From NCBI GenBank assembly GCA_964590105.1, contig CAZPYM010000001.1, positions 431,782 to 495,781 on the forward strand: DNA of 64,000 nucleotides. Direction: 5' to 3'. Shown in pieces: positions 1,548 through 54,035 of this stretch. The number at the start of each line of letters is the position of its first letter. Positions within the stretch are counted from its first letter, which is position 1. The position numbers were made by a program, and so were the translations under genes. The notes beneath the pieces are model-generated. The model saw nothing but the letters and a program-made list of their open reading frames with translations, was not told the DNA's origin and did no database searches. Source of the stretch: an uncultured Gammaproteobacteria bacterium. GTDB taxonomy: Bacteria; Patescibacteriota; Patescibacteriia; UBA11705; JABHMO01.

Positions 1548-3362
1548 CTACTTCCTTTTGAACATTTTTTCCAATTCACTGAACTTAAATTCTATGGCAC
1601 ATGGTCGGCCGTGTACACAGGTATAATGGTTGCTTAATTTTTCAAGATCAGCCACTAGCGCCTCCATTCCTTCAATCGATAATTCATCACCAAATTTAAT
1701 GGCGCTCTTACAAGCCATCATTTTAAAAATTTCTTCTACCGGTCCGCTTGGCAAATCATCCACTATCGCCATTTCAGTCAGTTCACCAAGTATCTGCAAA
1801 ATTATCTGCTTAATATCACTATTTACAAAAAACCGCGGTACGGCCGAAACAGCAAAACTATTGCCGCTGAAATTGGCAATTTCAAAACCCAGTCTTTCCA
1901 GCAGTTCCGCATTACTTTCAAATAAACTGATTTCTGTCGGCGCCAGTTCGATTTTTTGAGGCAAAAGCAATTTTTGGCTGGCCAATTTTCCGATCTGCCA
2001 TTCGCGGACAATCTTTTCATATTGGATTCTTTCTGAACTAGCATGTTGATCATATATTTTTATTGCTTCTTCTGTTTGCGCCACAATATAGGAATTCTGA
2101 ACCTGCCCTAAAATTTTGTATTCATCAACAAAAACTGGTTCATCGTTTTTAATCTCCGCAAAAACTTCTGGTCTCACTTCATCCGCCGTATGAACCATTC
2201 TCTGATTAAAATTATCAATTGCCTTTCGGAAATCCGTTGACATTATTTTGGGTTGAGAAAAATCCGAATTTGTATTTGGCCGATTAAATTTTTTGATTGG
2301 AATTTGTTCTTGTTTTTTTTCCAAAACATGCCCTATCGGCACAAACCCTTTAACTTCTTTGGCGCTAACCTGACGCTCGAGCTCATTTTCATCCAGAACA
2401 CCGGCGATAATTTGATAAATTGCCCGATAAATTATCTGCGGTTCTGAAAAACGCACTTCCATTTTTCGCGGATGCACATTGACATCAACGCTTATCGGAT
2501 CAATTATTAAATCAAAAATATAAACCGGATGTAAATCTCGCGCCAATAATGTGCCGAAAGCGGATTTAACTTGTTTGGAAATAATATACTCATTAACCGG
2601 CCTCTTATTAATAAACAAATACTGCAACTTGCGATTATTACGGCCGATAGCCGGCAAGCCAATATAACCTTTGACCTGGATCCCCTCGCGCTTCAAATCC
2701 ACCGGCAATAAATTGGCAGCAATATCATCGCCCAGGCAATCAGCAATCCGCGATGACAAGCCCGCCGCCGGAAACTGATAAACTGTTTTAGCGTTATGAA
2801 TCAACTTCCATGAGATTTCCGGATAAGCCAGACAATAATTCAAAAAAAGATCCACGATATGATTAAATTCAGTGACCGCGGTTTTTAAATATTTTTTTCT
2901 GGCCGGAATATTATAAAACAAATTTTTCACCTCCACGCTCGTGCCGTCCGCCGCGCCAATGTCTGCGACCGCCACTTGTCCGTTTTCCATTCTGAGGCTA
3001 GTACCGATGATTGATTCCTTGTTTTTCGTGACTAAACAAAATTCGCTGACTGCGGAAATACTGGACAGCGCTTCTCCGCGAAAACCCAGAGTTTTTATTT
3101 GATATAAATCTTCCGAAGAAGAAATTTTACTTGTTGAATGCTCGACCAGGCAGAGATTGGCGTCTTCCCGATCCATACCACAACCGTCGTCCGTCACTTT
3201 GATCAGATTTATTCCGCCGTTTTCCAATTCAACAATAATATTTTCCGCGCCGGCATCAAGCGCGTTTTCAACCAATTCTTTCATCACGGAAGCCGGCCGC
3301 TCCACCACTTCACCTGCCGCGATTTGATTGATTAATTCTTTTGGCAAAATTTTTATTGGCAT
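1548..3362 (-). CDS. mutL: DNA mismatch repair protein MutL
   Basis: N-terminal GHKL ATPase motifs (IAAGEVVERPASVMKELVENALDAGA, DDGCGM), MutL length and C-terminal dimerisation region. Confidence 0.9.
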   Translation of the reverse strand: MPIKILPKELINQIAAGEVVERPASVMKELVENALDAGAENIIVELENGGINLIKVTDDGCGMDREDANLCLVEHSTSKISSSEDLYQIKTLGFRGEALSSISAVSEFCLVTKNKESIIGTSLRMENGQVAVADIGAADGTSVEVKNLFYNIPARKKYLKTAVTEFNHIVDLFLNYCLAYPEISWKLIHNAKTVYQFPAAGLSSRIADCLGDDIAANLLPVDLKREGIQVKGYIGLPAIGRNNRKLQYLFINKRPVNEYIISKQVKSAFGTLLARDLHPVYIFDLIIDPISVDVNVHPRKMEVRFSEPQIIYRAIYQIIAGVLDENELERQVSAKEVKGFVPIGHVLEKKQEQIPIKKFNRPNTNSDFSQPKIMSTDFRKAIDNFNQRMVHTADEVRPEVFAEIKNDEPVFVDEYKILGQVQNSYIVAQTEEAIKIYDQHASSERIQYEKIVREWQIGKLASQKLLLPQKIELAPTEISLFESNAELLERLGFEIANFSGNSFAVSAVPRFFVNSDIKQIILQILGELTEMAIVDDLPSGPVEEIFKMMACKSAIKFGDELSIEGMEALVADLEKLSNHYTCVHGRPCAIEFKFSELEKMFKRK

Positions 3363-3372
3363 AAATATAGGT

Positions 3373-3427
3373 AGGGACAGTAGGGGCAGAATTATATTCT
3401 GCCCCTACTGTCCCTGCCCCTACTGTC
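3373..3427. repeat. perfect 20-bp inverted repeat (AGGGACAGTAGGGGCAGAAT / ATTCTGCCCCTACTGTCCCT, 3-nt loop) plus a third direct half-copy GCCCCTACTGTC, immediately 5-prime of the mutL start
   Basis: Read directly: 3373-3392 is the exact reverse complement of 3396-3415; the loop TAT and flanking bases spell TATAAT on the minus strand; 3416-3427 repeats 3401-3412. Confidence 0.8.
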
Positions 3428-3454
3428 ACTACCTTATCATATCTAAAAATTTTT

Positions 3455-3486
3455 GCAAAAAAAGGCGCCGTTACGTGTAACGACGC
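3455..3486 (-). terminator. rho-independent terminator downstream of the GC-rich 470-aa gene
   Basis: On the minus strand GCGTCGTTAC-ACG-GTAACGGCGC hairpin followed by CTTTTTTTGC (A-tract 3455-3463 on plus). Confidence 0.55.
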
Positions 3487-3538: not shown

Positions 3539-4951
3539 TCACAGCTTGATAATCCTGACTCCGAGGCCGGACAAACCTTCTTTCAACGAACTGAACAGCA
3601 TGGAAGCAAGCTCCCCGCCGGCCTGATTCGCCTTCGCGACTTCGTACACCGGCTTGTAGGCAGGATTCATGGCGGCCAGTTGCTCCAGCCTTTCAAAAAT
3701 CCGGTCAAAGACTGACGACAGGCGCTCCGTAAAGGCGTACTTGGCCGCCTCCTCGGCGAGAGCTGGACTCTCTTCCACCAGGGCAAGAATGCCTGCCGTG
3801 GAACAGTCGTCCGAAGTGAAGTATTCCTTCACCCGCGTCTCAATCGCCCGCGCTTCTTCGATCTTGGCGCGCTCCGCCTCGAACCGCGCCTGCAGATCAG
3901 TGAAGTACCCCCGATCGTCGCCCGCGCCGGCCAGCGCCGAAAGCTGTGCCCTCATCTGCGGCAACATTTCATCCTGCACCGCGAACGTGGCTACCGCCTT
4001 GCGGGGAAATGCCATGAGCGCATCCATGTCTCCGGTTGCCCAGGACGGCGGATTCACCGCCCGGAGCATTTCCATTTGCACCCGGACAATCTGCGCCTTG
4101 GTCTCATCCGAAAAGTCTGCGAGATCGCCCTCATAGTCGCCGCTCTCCATGGTCAGGTCCAGCTGATTCAGCGCAATGGCCTGGCGCAGAAAGCCAAGCA
4201 CCATGGCAAAGAAAAACTGATCCTGTTCCGCGCTCCGACCGATCGATTCGATTGTCTCCGCGAGCGAATGCAGGAGGCTGGGCATCCGATTGTTCACCAC
4301 CATTGCCAAACCGACGGCAGTGTCCGTATCCCGTGTTTCATTCATAAAATCGGCAATGAGATCAACAGCTTCCATCCTGATTTCGTCAGGACAGCAGCTG
4401 AAATCTCCATTTGCCTTGATCAACGCGTTGAAGCTTTCCTTGAAACCGGCTCGGCGTTCTACGAACGCCAAATACTTCAACGCTTCAGCGCTGCGCTCCG
4501 CGGACGGGCCGAGAGTACCGAGCGCCTTTTCCAAATCTGATCTGACCTGCGGCACAATACCGCTCAATTTCTCGAACACCGACTCCAGGATTACCTGTCC
4601 CAGGCACCTGTTGTGAATGAGCGGAACAACCATTGCGGCCACTCTTTGCTTGAGTTCTTCCGGCGCTGACACGAAATCGCCGTTCGCTTCACACAGATCC
4701 GCGAATTCGACGTACTGTTCCACGAACGCCGCAAGCTCGATCAGCCGATCGCGATTTTCTGCGCCGGCTTCAGCCGGTTTCCGCATTTCATCCAGCATAA
4801 ACGGCAGCAGGCCTTCGTCATGCTGACCCATCATTGCAGTGAAAATGCCTTCCCCATTGGCCAAATCATTTTGCAACTTTTCCATTTTCATTGCCAAGCA
4901 CTTTTTCAAGGCATGACAATCACGACACCTCGAATCTTCTTTCCTGATCAT
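3539..4951 (-). CDS. hypothetical protein, 470 aa, alpha-helical with internal repeats (ANGDF...PEEL / ANGDF...PDEI); GC-rich foreign-looking cassette between mutL and mutS
   Basis: Long ORF, about 57-60% GC against about 43% flanks; many spurious overlapping plus-strand ORFs, typical of GC-rich coding; perfect SD AAGGAGG 5 nt upstream of ATG (plus 4957-4963); no recognisable domain. Confidence 0.7.
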   Translation of the reverse strand: MIRKEDSRCRDCHALKKCLAMKMEKLQNDLANGEGIFTAMMGQHDEGLLPFMLDEMRKPAEAGAENRDRLIELAAFVEQYVEFADLCEANGDFVSAPEELKQRVAAMVVPLIHNRCLGQVILESVFEKLSGIVPQVRSDLEKALGTLGPSAERSAEALKYLAFVERRAGFKESFNALIKANGDFSCCPDEIRMEAVDLIADFMNETRDTDTAVGLAMVVNNRMPSLLHSLAETIESIGRSAEQDQFFFAMVLGFLRQAIALNQLDLTMESGDYEGDLADFSDETKAQIVRVQMEMLRAVNPPSWATGDMDALMAFPRKAVATFAVQDEMLPQMRAQLSALAGAGDDRGYFTDLQARFEAERAKIEEARAIETRVKEYFTSDDCSTAGILALVEESPALAEEAAKYAFTERLSSVFDRIFERLEQLAAMNPAYKPVYEVAKANQAGGELASMLFSSLKEGLSGLGVRIIKL

Positions 4952-5011: not shown

Positions 5012-5040
5012 ATAGTATTATATTTTTAAATTTTTGTCAA
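5012..5040 (-). promoter_or_regulatory. candidate sigma70 promoter of the 470-aa gene (TTGACA-17-TACTAT on minus strand)
   Basis: Minus strand reads TTGACA (plus 5035-5040), a 17-nt spacer, then TACTAT (5012-5017), about 55 nt upstream of the SD/ATG. Confidence 0.45.
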
Positions 5041-5075: not shown

Positions 5076-7643
5076 TTACAACTCCACTAATTCATCCTTC
5101 AATTCCGCGATCTTCTGCAAAGCCTGGAGCGGCGTGAGTTCATCAACCTTCAAATTTGCCAATTCGCTCGAAACTTTCTTTTCTTTTGGCGTTGCTTGGA
5201 GCGCCAGACGGGTCTGCTCTGCTCTTTTTGTTAATTTAATTTCAGTCCGATTTTCAAGTCCGGCGAGGATTTCATTGGCGCGCGAAGTTAATTCCTCCGG
5301 CAGGCCGGCGATTTTTGCCACTTCAATTCCATAGCTCTCTGAAGTAGCGCCTTTAACAATTTTGTGAAGAAATACCACGCGCCCCTTGTCTTCGCTCACT
5401 GCCACGCAATAGTTTTCAGCCCGCTCAAGATTTTCCGCCACTGACGTCAATTCATGGTAATGAGTGGCAAATAAGGTTTTGGCGCGAAGATTATTGTGAA
5501 TATGCTCCATCATTGCCCAGGCAATGGAAACACCGTCGTAAGTGGAAGTGCCGCGTCCGGGCTCATCCAAAATTATAAGCGAATTTTTACTGGCATTATT
5601 TAAAATATTGGCCGCTTCCTGCATTTCCGCCATAAAAGTGGAAACGCCCTGCGTCAGATTGTCTGAAGCGCCGACCCGGGTAAAAATCCTGTCAACAACG
5701 CCGATTTCCGCGGCTTCAGCCGACACAAAACTACCGGTTTGCGCCATAAGAACGATCAACGCTGTCTGGCGCAAAAAACTTGATTTACCACTCATGTTCG
5801 GACCGGTCAGCAAAATAAATTCATTCTTGTCGTGATCCAAAACCAAATCATTTGGCACATATCTTTCTCTTTGAAATTTTTCTATCACCGGATGTCGACC
5901 GCTAGAAATTTTTATTTTTCCTGAATTATTCACAACAGGACGGCAAAAATTATTTTCACTTGCCAAGACCGCCAGGCCAAGAAAAATATCTAGGCGAGCA
6001 ATCAGATCAGTGGTTTTTTGCAAGGACGCAAAATACTTAACAATCTTTTCAACTGTTTCAAGAAAAATCTGGCGTTCAATATTACAAATTTTTTCTTCCG
6101 CGCCAAGTATTTTTTCTTCGTATTCTTTTAATTCAGGAGTAATGAATCGTTCGGCATTAACCAATGTTTGTTTGCGAATATAATCATCAGGCGCTTGATT
6201 CAGATTGGCATTGCTGATTTCAATATAATAGCCAAACACCCGATTAAACTTCACTTTCAAAGACGAAATACCGGTTCGCTCCACTTCCCTGGCCTGCATT
6301 TGCAAAAGCCAGTCTTTGCCGCCGCGGGAAATTTTCCGGAGTTCATCAAGCTCTTCATTATAATTATCCTTAATCATACCGCCCTCGACAATCAAGGCCG
6401 GTGGCTCCTCAACAAAAACTTCATCCAGCAATTGAACCAATTCTTCGTGATTGTCCAGTTCAGATTGAGTTTGAATCAACAGCGCTGATTTTTTTTGTTC
6501 AAGCAATCTTTTTATCTCAGGAACAATAGTTAAACTTTTTTTCAAACCCAAACAGTCGCGCGCGTTTCCGCGTCCACAGCCAAGCCGCGCCATGAGGCGC
6601 TCCAAATCAGCCATTAACTTTAGTTTTTCAATTAAACTTTTTATTAAAATTAAATCTTGTTTAATTTCTCCGACCGCTTCGAGCCGCTTTTCAATATACT
6701 CCGGATTTAATAACGGATAAAATAGCCAGCGCCTGAACATCCGGCCACCCATACTGGTCGTTGTTTTGTCAATTACGGACAATAAAGAACCCTGGAATTC
6801 ACCGGAAAAGTTCGCCCGGAATAATTCCAAATTTCTGATTGTCGCCTCGTCCAAAACCATTCGATCGGAAAAATTGTAGCGGCTAATCTTGGTAATATGC
6901 GCCAATTCTGATTTTTGATTGTCTTTTAAATATGCAAGTAACCGACCGGCGGCGCAGATTGCCTGTTCCATGTTTTCCAGTCCAAATGACTGCAGATTTT
7001 TCATTTTAAAATGCCGCGTCAGAATATTGTACGGTTTTTCAAAAACTGAAAGATCAAAAACATTAACATGACTTTGCTCCGCCACAAAATCGCGGCAACG
7101 GGTGTCATTGGCCAAACTTTTATTAATAATTACTTCAGTGGCTCTGATTCGGAACAATTCATTTTTTAAAACATTTAAATCACTGATTTCAGCCGCTAAA
7201 AACTCACCGGTTGTCAGATCAGCCACCGCCAGCCCCCAGATATTTTTTTCAAGCGTCAAGCTGGCAATATAATTATTTGAATTGTTTTGCAAAGTTGAAT
7301 TCACGAGCGTTGTACCTGGCGTAACAACCTGAGTTACTTCACGTTTCACAATTCCGGGCAATGAAGGATCGCTCACCTGGTCGCAGATCGCCACTCTTTT
7401 TCCGGCTTTTAATAATTTAGCCAGATAACTTTCGAGAGCATGATGCGGCACGCCGCACATGGGCGTTTCATTCGCCGCCCCCTTGTGTCTCGCTGTCAAG
7501 ACAATATCCAAAATACCTGAAGCCTGCCGGGCATCCTCTCCAAAAAGTTCGTAAAAATCGCCCAAACGAAAAAACAACAACTCATTAGGATGCTTTTCTT
7601 TTATTTCCCGATATTGTTTCAACATTGGAGTTAGTTCGCTCAT
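5076..7643 (-). CDS. mutS: DNA mismatch repair protein MutS
   Basis: MSELTPMLKQYREIKEKHPNELLFFRLGDFYELFGEDA mismatch-binding N-terminus; Walker A GPNMSGKSSFLRQ; DEPGRGTSTYDG; 855 aa. Confidence 0.92.
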   Translation of the reverse strand: MSELTPMLKQYREIKEKHPNELLFFRLGDFYELFGEDARQASGILDIVLTARHKGAANETPMCGVPHHALESYLAKLLKAGKRVAICDQVSDPSLPGIVKREVTQVVTPGTTLVNSTLQNNSNNYIASLTLEKNIWGLAVADLTTGEFLAAEISDLNVLKNELFRIRATEVIINKSLANDTRCRDFVAEQSHVNVFDLSVFEKPYNILTRHFKMKNLQSFGLENMEQAICAAGRLLAYLKDNQKSELAHITKISRYNFSDRMVLDEATIRNLELFRANFSGEFQGSLLSVIDKTTTSMGGRMFRRWLFYPLLNPEYIEKRLEAVGEIKQDLILIKSLIEKLKLMADLERLMARLGCGRGNARDCLGLKKSLTIVPEIKRLLEQKKSALLIQTQSELDNHEELVQLLDEVFVEEPPALIVEGGMIKDNYNEELDELRKISRGGKDWLLQMQAREVERTGISSLKVKFNRVFGYYIEISNANLNQAPDDYIRKQTLVNAERFITPELKEYEEKILGAEEKICNIERQIFLETVEKIVKYFASLQKTTDLIARLDIFLGLAVLASENNFCRPVVNNSGKIKISSGRHPVIEKFQRERYVPNDLVLDHDKNEFILLTGPNMSGKSSFLRQTALIVLMAQTGSFVSAEAAEIGVVDRIFTRVGASDNLTQGVSTFMAEMQEAANILNNASKNSLIILDEPGRGTSTYDGVSIAWAMMEHIHNNLRAKTLFATHYHELTSVAENLERAENYCVAVSEDKGRVVFLHKIVKGATSESYGIEVAKIAGLPEELTSRANEILAGLENRTEIKLTKRAEQTRLALQATPKEKKVSSELANLKVDELTPLQALQKIAELKDELVEL

Positions 7644-28026: not shown

Positions 28027-28060
28027 CCGCCCATGGCAGACGCCGGGCGGCTTTGTTGTT
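28027..28060 (-). terminator. rho-independent terminator of the metallophosphoesterase cassette
   Basis: GCCGCCC...GGGCGGC stem (28027-28051); on the minus strand it is followed by CTTTTTTTTTGCC (A-tract 28013-28024 on plus). Confidence 0.6.
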
Positions 28061-28800
28061 CAACTTCCTTCATACAGTCGCTTGGTAAGAATACCGTCGA
28101 GATTGAGCTTTTTCATTTCAGCAACCGTTTCATCAATCCTGTACGAAACGCGCCGATACTCTGCCAAGAGCTTGTGGCGGAAAAAATCCACCACCATGTA
28201 ACAGGCGCGCGGGTCATCGTCGCGCGGCTGGCCGACGCTACCCACATTGATGGCGAACTTCGACGGGAAACGAACCTCCAGCGGCGAATGTGACATACCA
28301 AGCTTTACTAATCCATGCTTGATGTGGTAGATTGCCGGCTGATGAGTATGGCCAAAGAACAAAACCGGCGTCGCAACAGCCGTCAACTGCTGGCGGGCGA
28401 TATGTTCGTTGCGAATATACTCCCAGCCGTCAGGATCTGTCCAGTTCGCGTGAACCATTGAAATTCCCAGGTTGGGAATATCCATGGCCATTTCCAGTCC
28501 CCGCAAAAAGGCCAGATCATCAGCCTTGAGCATTTTGGCATTCTGCGCCATTGCCAACAACGCCGGGTAATTATGATTGGCCATGTTGCAGCCATGCCCC
28601 ACGCCAAAATCATGATTTCCCATGAGCGTCAGATTGCAATGCTCCCTGGCCCAAGCAATGCATTCCCGCGGAAACGGACCATAACCGGTCACATCGCCGA
28701 GGCAGTAGATCACATCAACGCCCATTGTGGCAATGTCTTTCGCAACGGCTCGCAGAGCCGGCCAATTGCTGTGAATGTCCGACAATATCGCCGCTCTCAT
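28060..28800 (-). CDS. calcineurin-like metallophosphoesterase (GC-rich cassette)
   Basis: Motifs DIHSN (D-x-H), LGDVTGYGP (GDxxDRG-like), LMGNHD (GNHD/E), FFGHTHQ; GC about 55%; SD AGGAGGA 5 nt upstream of ATG. Confidence 0.75.
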   Translation of the reverse strand: MRAAILSDIHSNWPALRAVAKDIATMGVDVIYCLGDVTGYGPFPRECIAWAREHCNLTLMGNHDFGVGHGCNMANHNYPALLAMAQNAKMLKADDLAFLRGLEMAMDIPNLGISMVHANWTDPDGWEYIRNEHIARQQLTAVATPVLFFGHTHQPAIYHIKHGLVKLGMSHSPLEVRFPSKFAINVGSVGQPRDDDPRACYMVVDFFRHKLLAEYRRVSYRIDETVAEMKKLNLDGILTKRLYEGS

Positions 28801-31574: not shown

Positions 31575-33203
31575 TTAACCCGCTTCTCGAATTCCCTCTT
31601 CGACTTCCACGCTCTTAAATAATTTTTTCTTCAAGCCTGCTACAAAATTCAAAAGCTCTTCTGTCTGCAATAAATATCCGACCAGGACAAAAACTGCAAT
31701 TCCCACGATTGTAGCAATAAGCCCCTGCATGAAAACGCCCCAGAACTTTTGCATATCAACAGAAAGGCCGAGCCAAGTTTTGGTATACTGAACCGCAACT
31801 CCCATTAGCAATGAAGCAAAGGAAATTTTTGCCAGCGCGACGATGATGCCATTACGCCAGATATTCGGTATTCTCAGCTTCAGCCAGACCACAAGCAAAA
31901 CCAGATTAAAAATCGAACTTATAGAAAATCCGAGAGCCAAACCAAGCACGCCAATCTTTTGAATCAGCCACCAGCTCAAAAAAACATTTACCAAAAGGCA
32001 CAAAAAGGCGGCATAAAACGGAATTTTGGTATTGTGCCGGGCATAAAACGCTCTCGCCAACAAAGGAAGCAATGATTGCGCGAACAAGCTAAGACAAAAC
32101 AAACCAAGCGAATTGGCTGTCAAAACCGTATCATTCCAGTCAAATTTTCCAGAACCGAGAATAATGCGGACAATCTGCGCTCGCAGAATTATAAATAAAA
32201 TTGAACAAGGGATTACAAAAAATAAAATTTGTTTAAAAGTGCGCTGAAAAGATGAACAAAAATTTTGTTCATCTTTTCCCGCAAATGACTTTGACAGAGC
32301 CGGAAAAACAGCAATAGCGTAAGACACACCGAATATACCGATGGCAAAACTTTGTAAATTATTTGCTAGGTTAAATATCGCCAAACTTCCGGCGGCCAAA
32401 GTTGAGGCCAGAACAGTAATTATGATCAAATTAAACTGGCCGCTCGCCAAACCCAGGATTCTCGGCCCCATCATTTTAATTATTTTTACAAAATGTGAAT
32501 CCTTAAAATTTAATATAAGACGGTAACCAAACCCAAGCCGGAAAACCGTTGGAATTTGTATTAACAAATGCAGGCCGGCGCCGAGTATCACGCCAAAAGC
32601 CAAACCATAAATATTGTACCGATCCACCAAGAACAAGGCGCCAAAAATAATTCCCAAATTATACATCACCGGCGCCAGTGAAAAAATTAAAAATCGCCTG
32701 AATGATTGCAAGACGCCGCCAAAAACACCGCTAAGTCCGAGCAATATCGGACTAAAAAACATCAGACGAGTTAAATTGATAGTGAGCTGGAGCTTGTCGC
32801 CGCTAAAACCGGGCGTTATGAGCGGCACCAACCACGGACTTAACACTGCCAGGATCAAACATGCGCCGAACAAAAACAAAGCCAGAATATTTAAAATATT
32901 ATTTACAAGATTCCAGGCCAGCTCATTTGTTTTGTATAGCGGGCTTTCTTCATTTTTCAAAAGACCAATAAAAACAGGAATAAAACCCGCGGACAGCGCG
33001 CCGAGAACAATCAAATTGTAAACCAAATCAGGCACGCGAAAAGCCGCGTAGTAAATATCCAGCTCATTGCCGGCGCCAAATTGGCCGGCCAAAATGCGAT
33101 CTCGCACGATTCCCAAAATCCGAGAAAGCAAACCGGCCGCGGCGATCACCACGGCGGCTGAAGTTATGGAAGTGAATTTAGTTGCAAAAAGTTTTTTAAA
33201 CAT
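31575..33203 (-). CDS. murJ: lipid II flippase MurJ
   Basis: 14-TM MviN/MurJ sequence with conserved RILGIVRDRILAGQFGAG...DIYYAAFRVPD N-terminus. Confidence 0.85.
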   Translation of the reverse strand: MFKKLFATKFTSITSAAVVIAAAGLLSRILGIVRDRILAGQFGAGNELDIYYAAFRVPDLVYNLIVLGALSAGFIPVFIGLLKNEESPLYKTNELAWNLVNNILNILALFLFGACLILAVLSPWLVPLITPGFSGDKLQLTINLTRLMFFSPILLGLSGVFGGVLQSFRRFLIFSLAPVMYNLGIIFGALFLVDRYNIYGLAFGVILGAGLHLLIQIPTVFRLGFGYRLILNFKDSHFVKIIKMMGPRILGLASGQFNLIIITVLASTLAAGSLAIFNLANNLQSFAIGIFGVSYAIAVFPALSKSFAGKDEQNFCSSFQRTFKQILFFVIPCSILFIILRAQIVRIILGSGKFDWNDTVLTANSLGLFCLSLFAQSLLPLLARAFYARHNTKIPFYAAFLCLLVNVFLSWWLIQKIGVLGLALGFSISSIFNLVLLVVWLKLRIPNIWRNGIIVALAKISFASLLMGVAVQYTKTWLGLSVDMQKFWGVFMQGLIATIVGIAVFVLVGYLLQTEELLNFVAGLKKKLFKSVEVEEGIREAG

Positions 33204-46747: not shown

Positions 46748-47131
46748 ATGAAAGAGCTCGGCCGCCATGTGTTGATTGAATTTTATGAATGCGCCACCGA
46801 GGCGCTGAACAACCTAGAATTCATTGAAGAACAAATGCTCGAAGCCGCCAGATTGACGGGCGCGACCATTGTCGGCAAAATCTTCCACCGATTCAGTCCA
46901 CACGGTGTTTCAGGCGCAGTGGTGATTGCTGAGTCGCACCTCACGATTCACACCTGGCCGGAATACGACTACGCGGCAGTTGATCTTTTCACCTGCGGAC
47001 CAACCGTTGATCCGTGGAAAGCTTTCACTCACCTGCAAACCGCAATCGGTTCCAAACGCACTTCTCAGACTGAGATCCGACGCGGGCTTTTTCCACAAAA
47101 CGTCAGCCACAAGCCCGGCGCTGACGGATGA
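46748..47131 (+). CDS. speH: S-adenosylmethionine decarboxylase proenzyme (small SpeH type), GC-rich cassette
   Basis: [11 protein letters not shown]..., self-processing site region ...[11 protein letters not shown]; perfect SD AAGGAGGTG; GC about 52%. Confidence 0.8.
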
Positions 47132-52839: not shown

Positions 52840-52910
52840 GTATTGATTTAATCTGTTCATTTCACTAACCGTCTCAGGCAGCTATGCCACAAATAGCAAA
52901 GGGAGAAAAC

Positions 52911-54035
52911 ATGGGAAAGAAAGCGTGGACATTCGCAATTCTGCTGGGGCTTGTAGCTTCTATTTCCGTACCATGGATTGTTATCAAGATCGTTGCCAAG
53001 ACGCAGAGCCCCGAGACGCACGAGCCGACGATGATGGAGAACGGCGACAACCCGGTAGAGTCCGGCCAGGACGAGCCCACAATGATGGAAAACAGCGACA
53101 ACCCGGTAGAGTCAAGCCAGGACGAACCCACGACTCTTCGCCTGCCGATGTACGTACAAACGACGGTCCAGGCGCGCCTCCTCACGATGGAGGAACTGGC
53201 CTTGGACTTTCCGGAAAACTATGACATTGAACAACGGGGTGACTATCACAGAATCGCCAAGAACTGCACGGCGACCGAACTGGCCACCAAGGCTGATTGC
53301 CTGCCGCTCACCGGCTGGTTCAAGAAGGCTTACTTGAAGTCTGACGGTTCCATTACCGTGGACTTCCAATGCAATCCAAACGACTCGCGAATGTGTACCG
53401 TGCTTTTGCGCGGACCTGTAAGCGATGGAACTGTCTACGGCTGTGGTCTTCCGGATGCGGCCCTCGAAGATATCCTCGTCATGGACTTACTTGGCGCCGG
53501 ATATAGCCTTCTGAAAGACGGGGCAGTCGAATACATCCGCTACGGCGGCAAAGACCTAACCGGCGGCCACCATTCATTCTTCATCAAGGACGGCCTGATC
53601 TATGGTAGGTACGGAACCGATGAAGAGCTCGTGCGCCGCGCTGACGGCTCGTTTGTCCGCGAAAGCGGCTCGTTCGCCGAGCAGATCAGGAAAGAGGCTC
53701 AGGCTAAGAAAGTGCTGGACTTTCTCGGCTCCGGATACTCCATGCGCTACGACGCCGTGTTCGAGTTTATCCAATACGACAAGCAGGACGTGGTGCCTCG
53801 CGGCTACCATTACTACATCCTCCGCGATGATCGGATCTACGGCATTCTCGGCGCGACCGAAGAGGAAGTTCTCGCCAACCGGCCGAAGATTCCGCCAGAA
53901 AAAAGGGATATGATCGGTCAATCATGTCTTTGTCCGGATCTCGGACTTGGGACATGGGTGGAACTCGGGTACAAAGAGCTGGTCTGCGTTCATCTGCCGG
54001 AAAGAGGTCCCATCTGCCATTCCAACTGCTTCTAG
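52911..54035 (+). CDS. secreted hypothetical repeat protein (GC-rich cassette; alternative upstream start 52884)
   Basis: Signal peptide MGKKAWTFAILLGLVASISVPWIV; tandem EPTMMENxDNPVESxQD repeats; duplicated about 55-aa module (LLGAGYSLLKDGAVEYIRYGGKD... / FLGSGYSMRYDAVFEFIQYDKQD...); SD GGGAGA before 52911; GC about 57%. Confidence 0.65.
   Translation: MGKKAWTFAILLGLVASISVPWIVIKIVAKTQSPETHEPTMMENGDNPVESGQDEPTMMENSDNPVESSQDEPTTLRLPMYVQTTVQARLLTMEELALDFPENYDIEQRGDYHRIAKNCTATELATKADCLPLTGWFKKAYLKSDGSITVDFQCNPNDSRMCTVLLRGPVSDGTVYGCGLPDAALEDILVMDLLGAGYSLLKDGAVEYIRYGGKDLTGGHHSFFIKDGLIYGRYGTDEELVRRADGSFVRESGSFAEQIRKEAQAKKVLDFLGSGYSMRYDAVFEFIQYDKQDVVPRGYHYYILRDDRIYGILGATEEEVLANRPKIPPEKRDMIGQSCLCPDLGLGTWVELGYKELVCVHLPERGPICHSNCF

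What the first reader, a model, noticed from the sequence alone, without database searches (positions are those of the whole stretch)
3373..3427. Perfect 20-bp palindrome with a TATAAT loop abutting the mutL start codon
AGGGACAGTAGGGGCAGAAT-TAT-ATTCTGCCCCTACTGTCCCT (3373-3415) plus a third half-copy lies within 10 nt of the mutL ATG and replaces any SD. The loop with its flanks spells TATAAT on the coding (minus) strand. It could be a repressor operator overlapping the mutL promoter, an attenuator that sequesters the translation start, or the scar or attachment site of the upstream insertion.
Basis: seen in the sequence. Interest (0 to 1): 0.5.

Follow-up and report, generated by a model that had tools for sequence, protein, structure and literature searches.

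The report
Perfect palindrome in mutL leader
A real, perfectly self-complementary 43-base DNA stretch sits in the transcribed leader of the mismatch-repair gene mutL of an uncultured Patescibacteria (CPR) bacterium. Related copies occur in the same mutS-mutL gap of two distant relatives, so it is most likely an ordinary mRNA stem-loop rather than an operator, a Shine-Dalgarno replacement or an insertion scar.

Summary
Perfect 20-bp arms lie at 3373-3392 and 3396-3415 with a 3-nt loop. A third copy (3414-3428/9) is a 15-nt tandem duplication. The element ends 10 nt before the mutL ATG and is the most stable local fold in the 64 kb.

Comparison with 11 related Falkowbacteria/Kuenenbacteria-like loci changes the interpretation:
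- **Position:** the palindrome lies downstream of a conserved promoter (TTGCAA-16-TGnTAAGGT), inside the mutL leader.
- **Shine-Dalgarno (SD):** nothing is replaced. Only about 6 of 56 genes in this genome have an SD-like motif.
- **"Upstream insertion":** ORF X is an old syntenic gene, found in the same slot in four relatives.
- **Loop TATAAT:** it is not conserved.
- **Family:** sequence-related perfect palindromes occur in the mutL leader of L092 and 12 nt after the mutS stop in L095. Every difference is mirrored in both arms: 5 double changes, a mirrored 2-nt indel and no G-U pair.
- **Copy number:** no other copy was found in 64 kb of this genome or in 84 kb of relatives.

Best reading (about 0.4): a transcribed stem-loop acting on MMR (mismatch repair) mRNAs through stability, processing or translation. 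Its perfection is probably kept by template switching during replication. The function is untested and interest is modest.

The parts
3396..3415 (-). 5' arm of the stem in the mutL-sense transcript (AGGGACAGTAGGGGCAGAAT)
   Evidence: 20/20 Watson-Crick with 3373-3392.
3393..3395 (-). 3-nt loop (AUA in the mutL-sense RNA)
   Evidence: The loop sequence is not conserved in L092 or L095.
3373..3392 (-). 3' arm of the stem. It ends 10 nt before the mutL ATG.
3414..3429 (-). Third copy (GTGACAGTAGGGGCAG). It is a 15-nt tandem duplication of the 5' arm with one mismatch. The predicted transcription start (about 3424) falls inside it.
   Evidence: It is absent from L092. The TSS is inferred from the -10 position only.
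3369..3372 (-). ACCU just 3' of the stem. It pairs with the AGGU/GUAGG of the promoter-proximal copy. The palindrome without the duplication would have 24-bp arms.
   Evidence: I2, 21 nt at 95%. (outer 5-bp helix in the MFE).
3431..3439 (-). Extended -10 element TGaTAAGGT of the conserved mutL promoter. Its last 4 bases are part of the outer palindrome.
   Evidence: The motif TGnTAAnGT is conserved in L092, L009, L089, L093, L095, L096, L217, L218 and L219. Consensus match only, no TSS data.
3453..3458 (-). -35 element TTGCAA of the mutL promoter, fused to the T-run of the upstream terminator
3465..3486 (-). Canonical intrinsic terminator of ORF X (9-bp GC-rich stem plus T7)
1548..3362 (-). 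mutL (604 aa)
   Evidence: MutL_C 1.8e-36, DNA_mis_repair 1.4e-33..
3539..4951 (-). ORF X, 470 aa. An all-helical, clade-restricted protein of unknown function with its own promoter (5012-5040) and an SD.
5076..7643 (-). mutS (855 aa)
   Evidence: MutS domains I-V.

Best explanation
The palindrome is a low-copy cis element tied to the mutS-mutL gap of one clade of Patescibacteria. It is transcribed, and in the RNA it forms a very stable stem-loop at the end of a mismatch-repair message.

**In this window**
- Transcription from the conserved promoter (TTGCAA-16-TGaTAAGGT) should start at about 3424.
- The mutL mRNA would then begin with one unpaired base, a 5-bp outer helix and the 20-bp perfect stem.
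- Four to ten A/U-rich bases and the AUG follow.

**Likely action**
- In a genome that starts translation almost without SD sequences, such a stem most likely sets the fate of the mutL message.
- It could protect the 5' end, offer a 20-bp duplex for RNase III-type processing, and/or limit ribosome access next to the start codon, keeping MutL output fixed and probably low.
- In L095 a related copy sits 12 nt after the mutS stop. There the same kind of structure would cap the 3' end of the mutS message.

**How the perfection is kept**
The strict Watson-Crick perfection and the mirrored indel are best explained by template switching during DNA replication. This copies one arm onto the other.

**Shown versus inferred**
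- Shown: the structure, its position relative to the conserved promoter and the start codon, the homologous copies, the mirrored changes, and the absence of other copies.
- Inferred: the transcription start, the RNA-level action and its direction.
For: - **Structure:** the fold is real and extreme. RNA z = -7.8, and it is the best 60-nt fold in the window by 14 kcal/mol.
- **Location:** it lies between a promoter conserved in 10 of 11 related loci and the mutL ATG.
- **Family in L092:** a 21/22-bp perfect palindrome directly after the same -10 and 12 nt before the ATG.
- **Family in L095:** a 28-bp perfect palindrome 12 nt after the mutS stop.
- **Shared core:** GGGACRGTAGGGRCAGAAY, 16/19 identical between the window and L095.
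- **Covariation:** on the three-way alignment, 21 pairs are 100% paired. Five pairs changed on both sides, none on one side only, and the 2-nt indel is mirrored.
- **Other leader hairpins:** L009 and L218 carry unrelated strong GC-rich hairpins ending 9-14 nt before the mutL ATG.
- **Not a terminator:** true terminators in these loci are canonical, with a stem followed directly by a T-run. The three palindromes are not followed by one in L092 or L095.
- **SD-poor genome:** structure near the start is therefore the main lever on initiation.
- **Known roles of end hairpins:** 5' and 3' stem-loops and REP sequences are established mRNA stabilisers, and RNase III acts on long duplexes (review PMC7509114).
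- **Template switching:** it is documented to create perfect stems and multibase compensatory changes in one step (PMC8794818; PMC7202029).
Against: - No transcript data exist. The TSS is only a consensus inference.
- In L092 the DNA palindrome begins 1 nt after the -10, so its outer 5-6 bp would not be transcribed. In the window the outer symmetry runs into the -10. Symmetry beyond the transcript points to a DNA-level cause.
- There is no G-U pair in 59 cells. This is unusual for a purely RNA-selected helix.
- Most relatives lack a strong hairpin in the mutL leader: L093, L095, L096, L217 and L219 have z -1.3 to +0.1, and L089 looks leaderless. The element is therefore dispensable.
- L096, whose MutL is 81% identical to that of L095, lacks the palindrome. 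The distribution is patchy, as for a mobile or short-lived element.
- The direction of any effect (stabilising or inhibitory) cannot be told from sequence.
Confidence: 0.4

Rival explanations
1. A functionless DNA palindrome. An inverted duplication of the first bases of the mutL leader (GTAGNGACAGAAT, still present as a single arm in L009) was made by template switching. The same process keeps it perfect, and it is tolerated because the leader is a permissive, hypervariable spacer.
For: - The arms are strictly Watson-Crick, with no G-U and a mirrored indel.
- The symmetry extends upstream of the predicted TSS into the -10.
- The leader ranges from 0 to about 150 nt and holds unrelated repeats in different relatives.
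- Most relatives lack the element, including L096, the close sister of L095.
- The mechanism is documented (PMC8794818, PMC7202029).
Against: - The core sequence is 80-84% identical between genomes whose MutL proteins are only 61-64% identical and whose other intergenic bases are unalignable.
- Perfect 20-28-bp palindromes are deletion-prone, yet this one persisted or spread.
- All three members lie within 13 nt of a mismatch-repair gene end.
Confidence: 0.2
2. A recombination or insertion landmark of the variable mutS-mutL slot. Gene modules that end in a terminator plus an outward promoter are exchanged next to the palindrome. The palindrome is therefore found on either side of the cargo.
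For: - The gap holds three unrelated cargo sets, or none, in related genomes, with a constant terminator-TTGCAA junction at the mutL side.
- The palindrome is on the mutL side of the cargo in the window and L092, and on the mutS side in L095.
- The distribution is patchy despite high core identity.
- Precedent for control of mutL by an element inserted at its 5' end: SpyCI islands of Streptococcus pyogenes (PMC3430984, PMC4689407).
Against: - No integrase, transposase or Y1 transposase is present in the window or in the cargo.
- No direct repeats or target duplications flank the palindrome.
- X diverges like a vertically inherited gene (37%, 26% and 24% identity).
- In the window the palindrome is separated from the cargo by the conserved promoter.
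- The similarity between the X and mutL promoters (3435-3455 versus 5016-5036, 81%) is low-complexity A/T.
Confidence: 0.12
3. An operator. A dimeric repressor binds the inverted repeat, which overlaps the -10/+1 region, and shuts off mutL transcription.
For: - The position from the -10 to about +45 is where repressors often act.
- Symmetric half-sites would also evolve in parallel.
- The apex CAGAAT-N3-ATTCTG is identical in the window and L092.
Against: - The mirrored 2-nt indel moves the outer half-sites 4 bp apart.
- The symmetry is perfect over 20-28 bp, far beyond a protein footprint half-site.
- The L095 copy is not at a promoter.
- No second site exists in 64 kb.
- The only recognisable regulator in the window is HrcA.
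Confidence: 0.08
4. A promoter-proximal attenuator or terminator. Most transcripts stop at the hairpin, so little mutL mRNA is made.
For: - The scan lists it as terminator-like (20-bp stem followed by CTATATTT).
- The stem forms within the first 60 nt of the transcript.
Against: - The T-rich tail is weak and is absent in L092 (GATAATGATATT) and L095 (AAACGCG...).
- Real terminators in the same loci have uninterrupted T6-8 directly after the stem.
- No alternative antiterminator pairing involves the start region. The only alternative (copy 1 with the 3' arm) is 7 kcal/mol weaker and needs untranscribed bases.
Confidence: 0.07
5. One copy of a dispersed REP- or MITE-like repeat of this genome.
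For: - It is a GC-rich palindrome in an AT-rich genome.
- GTAG motifs occur in the arms.
- Related copies lie at two different positions in different genomes.
- Other relatives carry other GC-rich palindromic repeats in the same leader (L218, L097).
Against: - A covariance-model search with filters off finds no other member in the 64-kb window or in 84 kb of relatives.
- The 16-mer with 3 mismatches gives only the local copies.
- No RAYT/Y1 transposase is present in the window.
- All three known members are in the mutS-mutL gap.
Confidence: 0.05

Closest known systems
5'-terminal stem-loops that stabilise bacterial mRNAs (the ompA, recA and vacA type reviewed in PMC7509114)
   Same: A strong hairpin at or within a few bases of the predicted 5' end of the message, upstream of the start codon and with no dependence on a specific loop sequence.
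   Different: The stem is much longer and perfect (20-28 bp against typically 8-15 bp with mismatches). The TSS is not mapped. The symmetry extends into the promoter DNA. A related copy lies at a 3' end in another genome.
REP/BIME elements of enterobacteria and pseudomonads
   Same: GC-rich extragenic palindromes between genes of one cluster. They act as RNA stem-loops that protect upstream messages, and they evolve as families.
   Different: REPs are imperfect, occur as hundreds of dispersed copies and are linked to RAYT transposases. Here there is one copy per 64 kb, it is perfect, it is bound to one locus, and no RAYT was seen.
RNase III processing hairpins in leaders (the rnc autoregulatory site rncO; see PMC7509114)
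   Same: A duplex of about two helical turns in a 5' leader, long enough to be an RNase III substrate.
   Different: Known sites have internal loops and sequence antideterminants. Whether this organism has RNase III, and whether it cuts here, is unknown.
SpyCI phage-like islands at the 5' end of mutL in Streptococcus pyogenes (PMC3430984, PMC4689407)
   Same: Foreign or variable DNA between mutS and mutL, with an outward promoter feeding mutL. The expression of mutL depends on what lies in the gap.
   Different: SpyCI is a 13-17-kb integrase-bearing island with att repeats that excises. Here the cargo is one to three genes without a recombinase, X is syntenic in four lineages, and no att-type direct repeats were found.
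Quasipalindrome or template-switch products (PMC8794818, PMC7202029)
   Same: A perfect inverted repeat with a very short spacer. Multibase and indel differences between relatives are mirrored in both arms, and there are no G-U intermediates.
   Different: Those papers describe a mutational mechanism, not a function. It explains how the perfection is kept, not why the element stays in this locus.

Membership tests
REP/BIME (RAYT-associated repetitive extragenic palindromes) | Many dispersed intergenic copies per genome | tested here: not met
   One locus in 64 kb and none elsewhere in 84 kb of relatives. The rest of the genome is not available.
REP/BIME (RAYT-associated repetitive extragenic palindromes) | Imperfect palindrome preceded by a conserved GTAG, with a cognate Y1 (RAYT) transposase in the genome | tested here: inconclusive
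   GTAG occurs inside the arms, but the palindrome is perfect. No Y1_Tnp hit among 56 ORFs of the window. The whole genome was not searched.
Intrinsic (Rho-independent) terminator / attenuator | GC-rich stem followed directly by a U-tract | tested here: not met
   The window tail is ACCUAUAUUU (5 T in 8). L092 and L095 have no U-tract. Canonical terminators nearby have T6-8.
Intrinsic (Rho-independent) terminator / attenuator | Mutually exclusive antiterminator or anti-sequestor pairing | tested here: not met
   The only alternative pairing uses the duplicated arm, is weaker (-38.3 versus -45.7 kcal/mol), and needs bases upstream of the predicted TSS.
Palindromic repressor operator | Half-sites at fixed spacing recognised by a dimeric regulator, usually with further sites or a nearby regulator gene | tested here: not met
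   The mirrored 2-nt indel changes the spacing. There are no other sites. No candidate regulator is adjacent.
Integron attC / cassette recombination site | Imperfect palindrome with R''-L''/L'-R' boxes and extrahelical bases, next to an IntI integrase and an attI site | tested here: not met
   The stem is perfect without bulges and has no GTTRRRY core. No integrase is present in the window.
Integrative island attachment site at mutL (SpyCI type) | Direct att repeats flanking an integrase-bearing island that interrupts mutS-mutL transcription | tested here: not met
   There is no integrase. X is syntenic in four relatives. The only flanking direct repeat is an A/T-rich promoter-like 21-mer.
5'-UTR stabiliser stem-loop | Hairpin within about 0-4 nt of the mRNA 5' end | not testable with these tools
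   With the TSS inferred at about 3424, one base is unpaired. No transcript ends are available.
RNase III substrate | About 20 bp or more of uninterrupted duplex RNA, with RNase III present | tested here: inconclusive
   Duplex length is met: 20, 21-22 and 28 bp. No rnc gene lies within the window, and the rest of the genome was not seen.
Rfam families | Match at the gathering score | tested here: not met
   No hit in the window or in five related loci.

The most novel reading that the evidence does not exclude
The palindrome could be part of a built-in control of mutation rate in these reduced genomes. One version is a structure- and length-variable switch: the 15-nt arm duplication and the 9-nt GTAGGGRCA sub-repeats would change by slippage or template switching. 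Because MMR status may itself affect the rate of such changes, this could feed back on mutL expression. The other version is that the palindrome is the landmark next to which promoter-carrying gene modules are swapped into the mutS-mutL gap, a recombinase-poor analogue of SpyCI control of mutL.
Probability: 0.08. Interest if true: 0.7.

Novelty: new member of a known kind. Interest (0 to 1): 0.32.

Why it matters
Taken as a plain leader hairpin, it mainly corrects the annotation of this locus. It gives the promoter position, shows SD-independent initiation, and shows that X is a resident gene rather than an insertion.

It also gives a clean natural example of a long stem whose arms change only in mirrored fashion, indels included. 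That fits the template-switch view of how perfect hairpins are made and kept.

The wider point concerns one clade of Patescibacteria. There the short gap between mutS and mutL is a turnover hotspot for cargo genes, leaders and palindromes. If mutL output depends on what sits in that gap, it would bear on how these small genomes set their mutation rate. That link is not shown here.

Tried and rejected
- **Metagenome scan with the exact 16-mer.** Inspection shows unrelated GC-rich coding matches and one minisatellite, L188. It says nothing on dispersal.
- **IMG/VR scans.** The 16-mer gave 7 chance-like single hits. The degenerate 19-mer of the family gave none.
- **Rfam.** Nothing in the window or in relatives.
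- **Regulon search.** I used the shared apex CAGAAT-N3-ATTCTG and GTAGGGRCAG. The apex gave 8 matches against 4.25 expected by chance, and GTAGGGRCAG matched only within the palindrome locus.
- **Conserved leader hairpin as a general feature of mutL in the clade.** Rejected, because five leaders fold no better than shuffles and one gene looks leaderless.
- **The loop TATAAT as a promoter.** Rejected, because there is no -35, no TG, and no conservation.
- **Two-sequence MAFFT alignment.** It placed the gaps asymmetrically and was unusable. The three-sequence alignment A5 was symmetric.
- **afdb50 fold library.** Not available.

Full report
**1. The observation**

The + strand reads AGGGACAGTAGGGGCAGAAT (3373-3392), TAT, ATTCTGCCCCTACTGTCCCT (3396-3415). 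This is a perfect 20-bp inverted repeat with a 3-nt spacer.
- The unit CTGCCCCTACTGTCC at 3399-3413 is repeated in tandem at 3414-3428 with one mismatch.
- With its flank (CTACCT, 3429-3434) this outer copy is 95% complementary over 21 nt to 3369-3389.
- Without the 15-nt duplication, the element would therefore be a 24-bp-arm palindrome: AGGTAGGGACAGTAGGGGCAGAAT / ATA / complement.
- The 16-mer occurs three times against 0.15 expected.
- The 60-nt window holding the element folds at -43.9 kcal/mol. The window mean is -10.1 (sd 4.8) and the runner-up is -29.9.

All genes here are on the minus strand: mutS 5076-7643, a 470-aa ORF "X" 3539-4951, and mutL 1548-3362. IF-1 and ribosomal protein S13 follow. 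The palindrome ends 10 nt before the mutL ATG.

**2. The organism and its translation signals**

The nearest MutL proteins (60-65% identity) come from MAGs labelled Candidatus Kuenenbacteria, Falkowbacteria, Parcubacteria or Patescibacteria. The gene content is typical of such genomes.

Only about 6 of 56 long ORFs have an SD-like motif within 20 nt of their start. Most are preceded by plain A/U-rich sequence. None of the eleven related mutL genes has an SD. The palindrome therefore does not "replace" an SD.

**3. Where the element sits in the transcription unit**

I fetched the mutL region of ten relatives: L009, L089, L092, L093, L095, L096, L097, L217, L218 and L219.
- All but L097 share the same promoter-like block fused to the T-run of the preceding terminator: TTGCAA, 16-17 nt, TGnTAAnGT.
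- In the window this block is at 3458-3431 on the minus strand.
- The palindrome lies downstream of it. The predicted start, 7 nt after the -10, is at about 3424. This is inference, because no transcript data exist.
- The resulting RNA would have one free 5' base, a 5-bp outer helix (GUAGG/CCUAU), the 20-bp stem, then AUUU and the AUG (-45 kcal/mol).
- The AUG itself is not paired.
- The TATAAT in the loop has no -35 and no TG, and it is not conserved.

**4. A family, not a singleton**

L092 (MutL 64% identical) has GAGACGGTGTAGTGACAGAAT-TAA-ATTCTGTCACTACACCGTCTC. It starts 1 nt after the same -10 and ends 12 nt before the ATG.

L095 (MutL 61% identical) has a 28-bp-arm perfect palindrome, ATTGGGACGGGACGGTAGGGACAGAACA|C|.... 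It sits 12 nt after the mutS stop and upstream of the cargo genes and their promoter.

The shared core is GGGACRGTAGGGRCAGAAY. The window and L095 are 16/19 identical in it, while the surrounding intergenic DNA is unalignable.

On the three-way alignment A5:
- All 21 pairs are Watson-Crick in all sequences.
- 5 pairs changed on both sides and none on one side only.
- A 2-nt insertion in L092 is mirrored in both arms.
- Shuffled and slid controls do not reach these values. With three sequences this is indicative rather than statistical.

L009 keeps only one arm (GTAGGGACAGAAT) right after the -10. It carries a different 17-bp palindrome 9 nt before the ATG.

**5. Copy number**

A covariance model of the family (R1) was run with filters off.
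- It finds only the known copy in the 64-kb window.
- It finds only the L092 and L095 copies in 84 kb of relatives.
- It finds nothing in 897 kb around mutL genes of other phyla.

No transposase, integrase or Y1 transposase is encoded in the window. All three known members thus lie in the mutS-mutL gap.

The public metagenome scan was uninformative. The remainder of the genome could not be read.

**6. The "upstream insertion"**

X has homologues in the same mutS-X-mutL position in L092 (37% identity), L218 (26%), L219 (24%) and L217 (a fragment).
- The family has five real representatives among 1.84 billion clusters.
- It has no Pfam domain.
- It has an invariant N-terminal C-x2-C-x5-C motif.
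- Its model is an all-alpha solenoid (pLDDT 82) with only generic structural neighbours.

X is GC-rich and carries a perfect SD, but it is an old resident, not a recent insert.

Other relatives hold two unrelated cargo sets or nothing in the gap. The slot is variable, yet the palindrome in the window is separated from the cargo by the conserved promoter.

**7. What it most likely does**

The palindromes are not intrinsic terminators. Genuine terminators in these loci have a T6-8 run directly after the stem, whereas L092 and L095 have none after the palindrome.

They are not good operators either:
- The mirrored indel shifts the half-sites.
- The symmetry is perfect over 20-28 bp.
- The L095 copy is not at a promoter.
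- No other site or regulator is seen.

What the three copies share is a very stable stem-loop within 13 nt of the end of a mismatch-repair coding region: at the 5' end of mutL twice and at the 3' end of mutS once. Stem-loops at mRNA ends and REP sequences are known stabilisers, and long duplexes are RNase III substrates (PMC7509114). In an SD-poor organism, a -40 kcal/mol helix 4-10 nt from the AUG should also weigh on initiation.

I therefore favour an RNA-level cis role (about 0.4) and cannot tell its direction.

**8. Why it is perfect**

Three features point to a DNA-level copying process rather than stepwise RNA-level compensation:
- the lack of any G-U pair;
- the mirrored indel;
- the extension of the symmetry upstream of the predicted start and into the -10.

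Template switching during replication creates and repairs such stems in one event (PMC8794818; PMC7202029). This explains maintenance, and it leaves open that the element is merely tolerated (rival, 0.2).

**9. Limits**

- Strong leader hairpins are present in only 4 of 11 relatives: the window, L092, L009 and L218.
- L096, with MutL 81% identical to that of L095, lacks the palindrome.
- The element is therefore dispensable and patchy. This keeps a mobile or boundary-marker reading alive (0.12) and caps the interest.
- Nothing here touches expression directly.

**10. Verdict**

The element is a new, locus-bound family of perfect palindromes that most likely works as an mRNA stem-loop, which is an ordinary kind of element in an unusual lineage and locus.

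Noticed in passing
window 3539-4951 (minus): ORF X is a tiny clade-restricted protein family with five representatives in 1.84 billion clusters. It is always encoded between mutS and mutL. It is all-helical, has an invariant N-terminal C-x2-C-x5-C motif, is GC-rich (0.56 against 0.41 for mutL), and has a perfect SD in an SD-poor genome. A possible mismatch-repair-associated factor of unknown function.
   Followed up: partly
window, whole; e.g. 28060-28800 and 46748-47131: The genome is almost SD-less: about 6 of 56 ORF starts have an SD-like motif. The few genes with strong SDs are X, a metallophosphoesterase and an AdoMet decarboxylase. X and the metallophosphoesterase region (GC about 0.48) are GC-richer than the window average; the decarboxylase region is not. 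X and the metallophosphoesterase may therefore be acquired genes.
   Followed up: partly
L089, L093/L094, L095/L096, L097, L009 (mutS-mutL gap): The gap between mutS and mutL is a variable slot in this clade. It holds the X family, two other unrelated no-Pfam gene sets, a roughly 47-aa ORF, or nothing. A terminator fused to the conserved mutL promoter is always found at the mutL side.
   Followed up: partly
L089 3985-4003: The -10 element TGtTAAGGT lies only 6 nt before the mutL ATG, so this relative's mutL mRNA is probably leaderless.
   Followed up: no
L096 790-1320: A stretch of about 470 nt is GC-rich and has stops in all frames. It has its own TTGACA-17-TATACT promoter and a canonical terminator. 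It lies just after mutS, where the sister locus L095 has the palindrome. It has no Rfam hit and no match in any other locus held, so it may be an unknown non-coding RNA.
   Followed up: partly
window 32246-32278: A perfect 16-bp-arm AT-rich palindrome (GAAAAGATGAACAAAA/TTTTGTTCATCTTTTC, 1-nt centre) lies inside the MurJ coding sequence.
   Followed up: no
window 53020-53131, inside ORF 52884-54035 (+): A 51-nt tandem repeat (2.2 copies) lies in a GC-rich (0.57) plus-strand ORF without a Pfam match, in a window where nearly all genes are on the minus strand.
   Followed up: no
L009 2955-3026; L219 3195-3240: An imperfect 27-nt inverted repeat built of TACGAAT-like units abuts the mutS ATG in L009. 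Similar TACGAAT repeats fill the mutL leader of L219.
   Followed up: no
L218 2840-2990; L096 1288-1314; L097 2821-2835: GC-rich hairpins of the type GTCCCGCC-N3-GGCGGGAC recur in leaders and terminators of several relatives. The L218 leader also holds tandem repeats of about 21 nt (CGCGTAACGAAGGACG).
   Followed up: no
L188 2830-2990 (metagenome contig Ga0099364_10050939): A (GACAGTAGGG)n-type minisatellite contains the 16-mer by chance. It is unrelated to the finding.
   Followed up: yes
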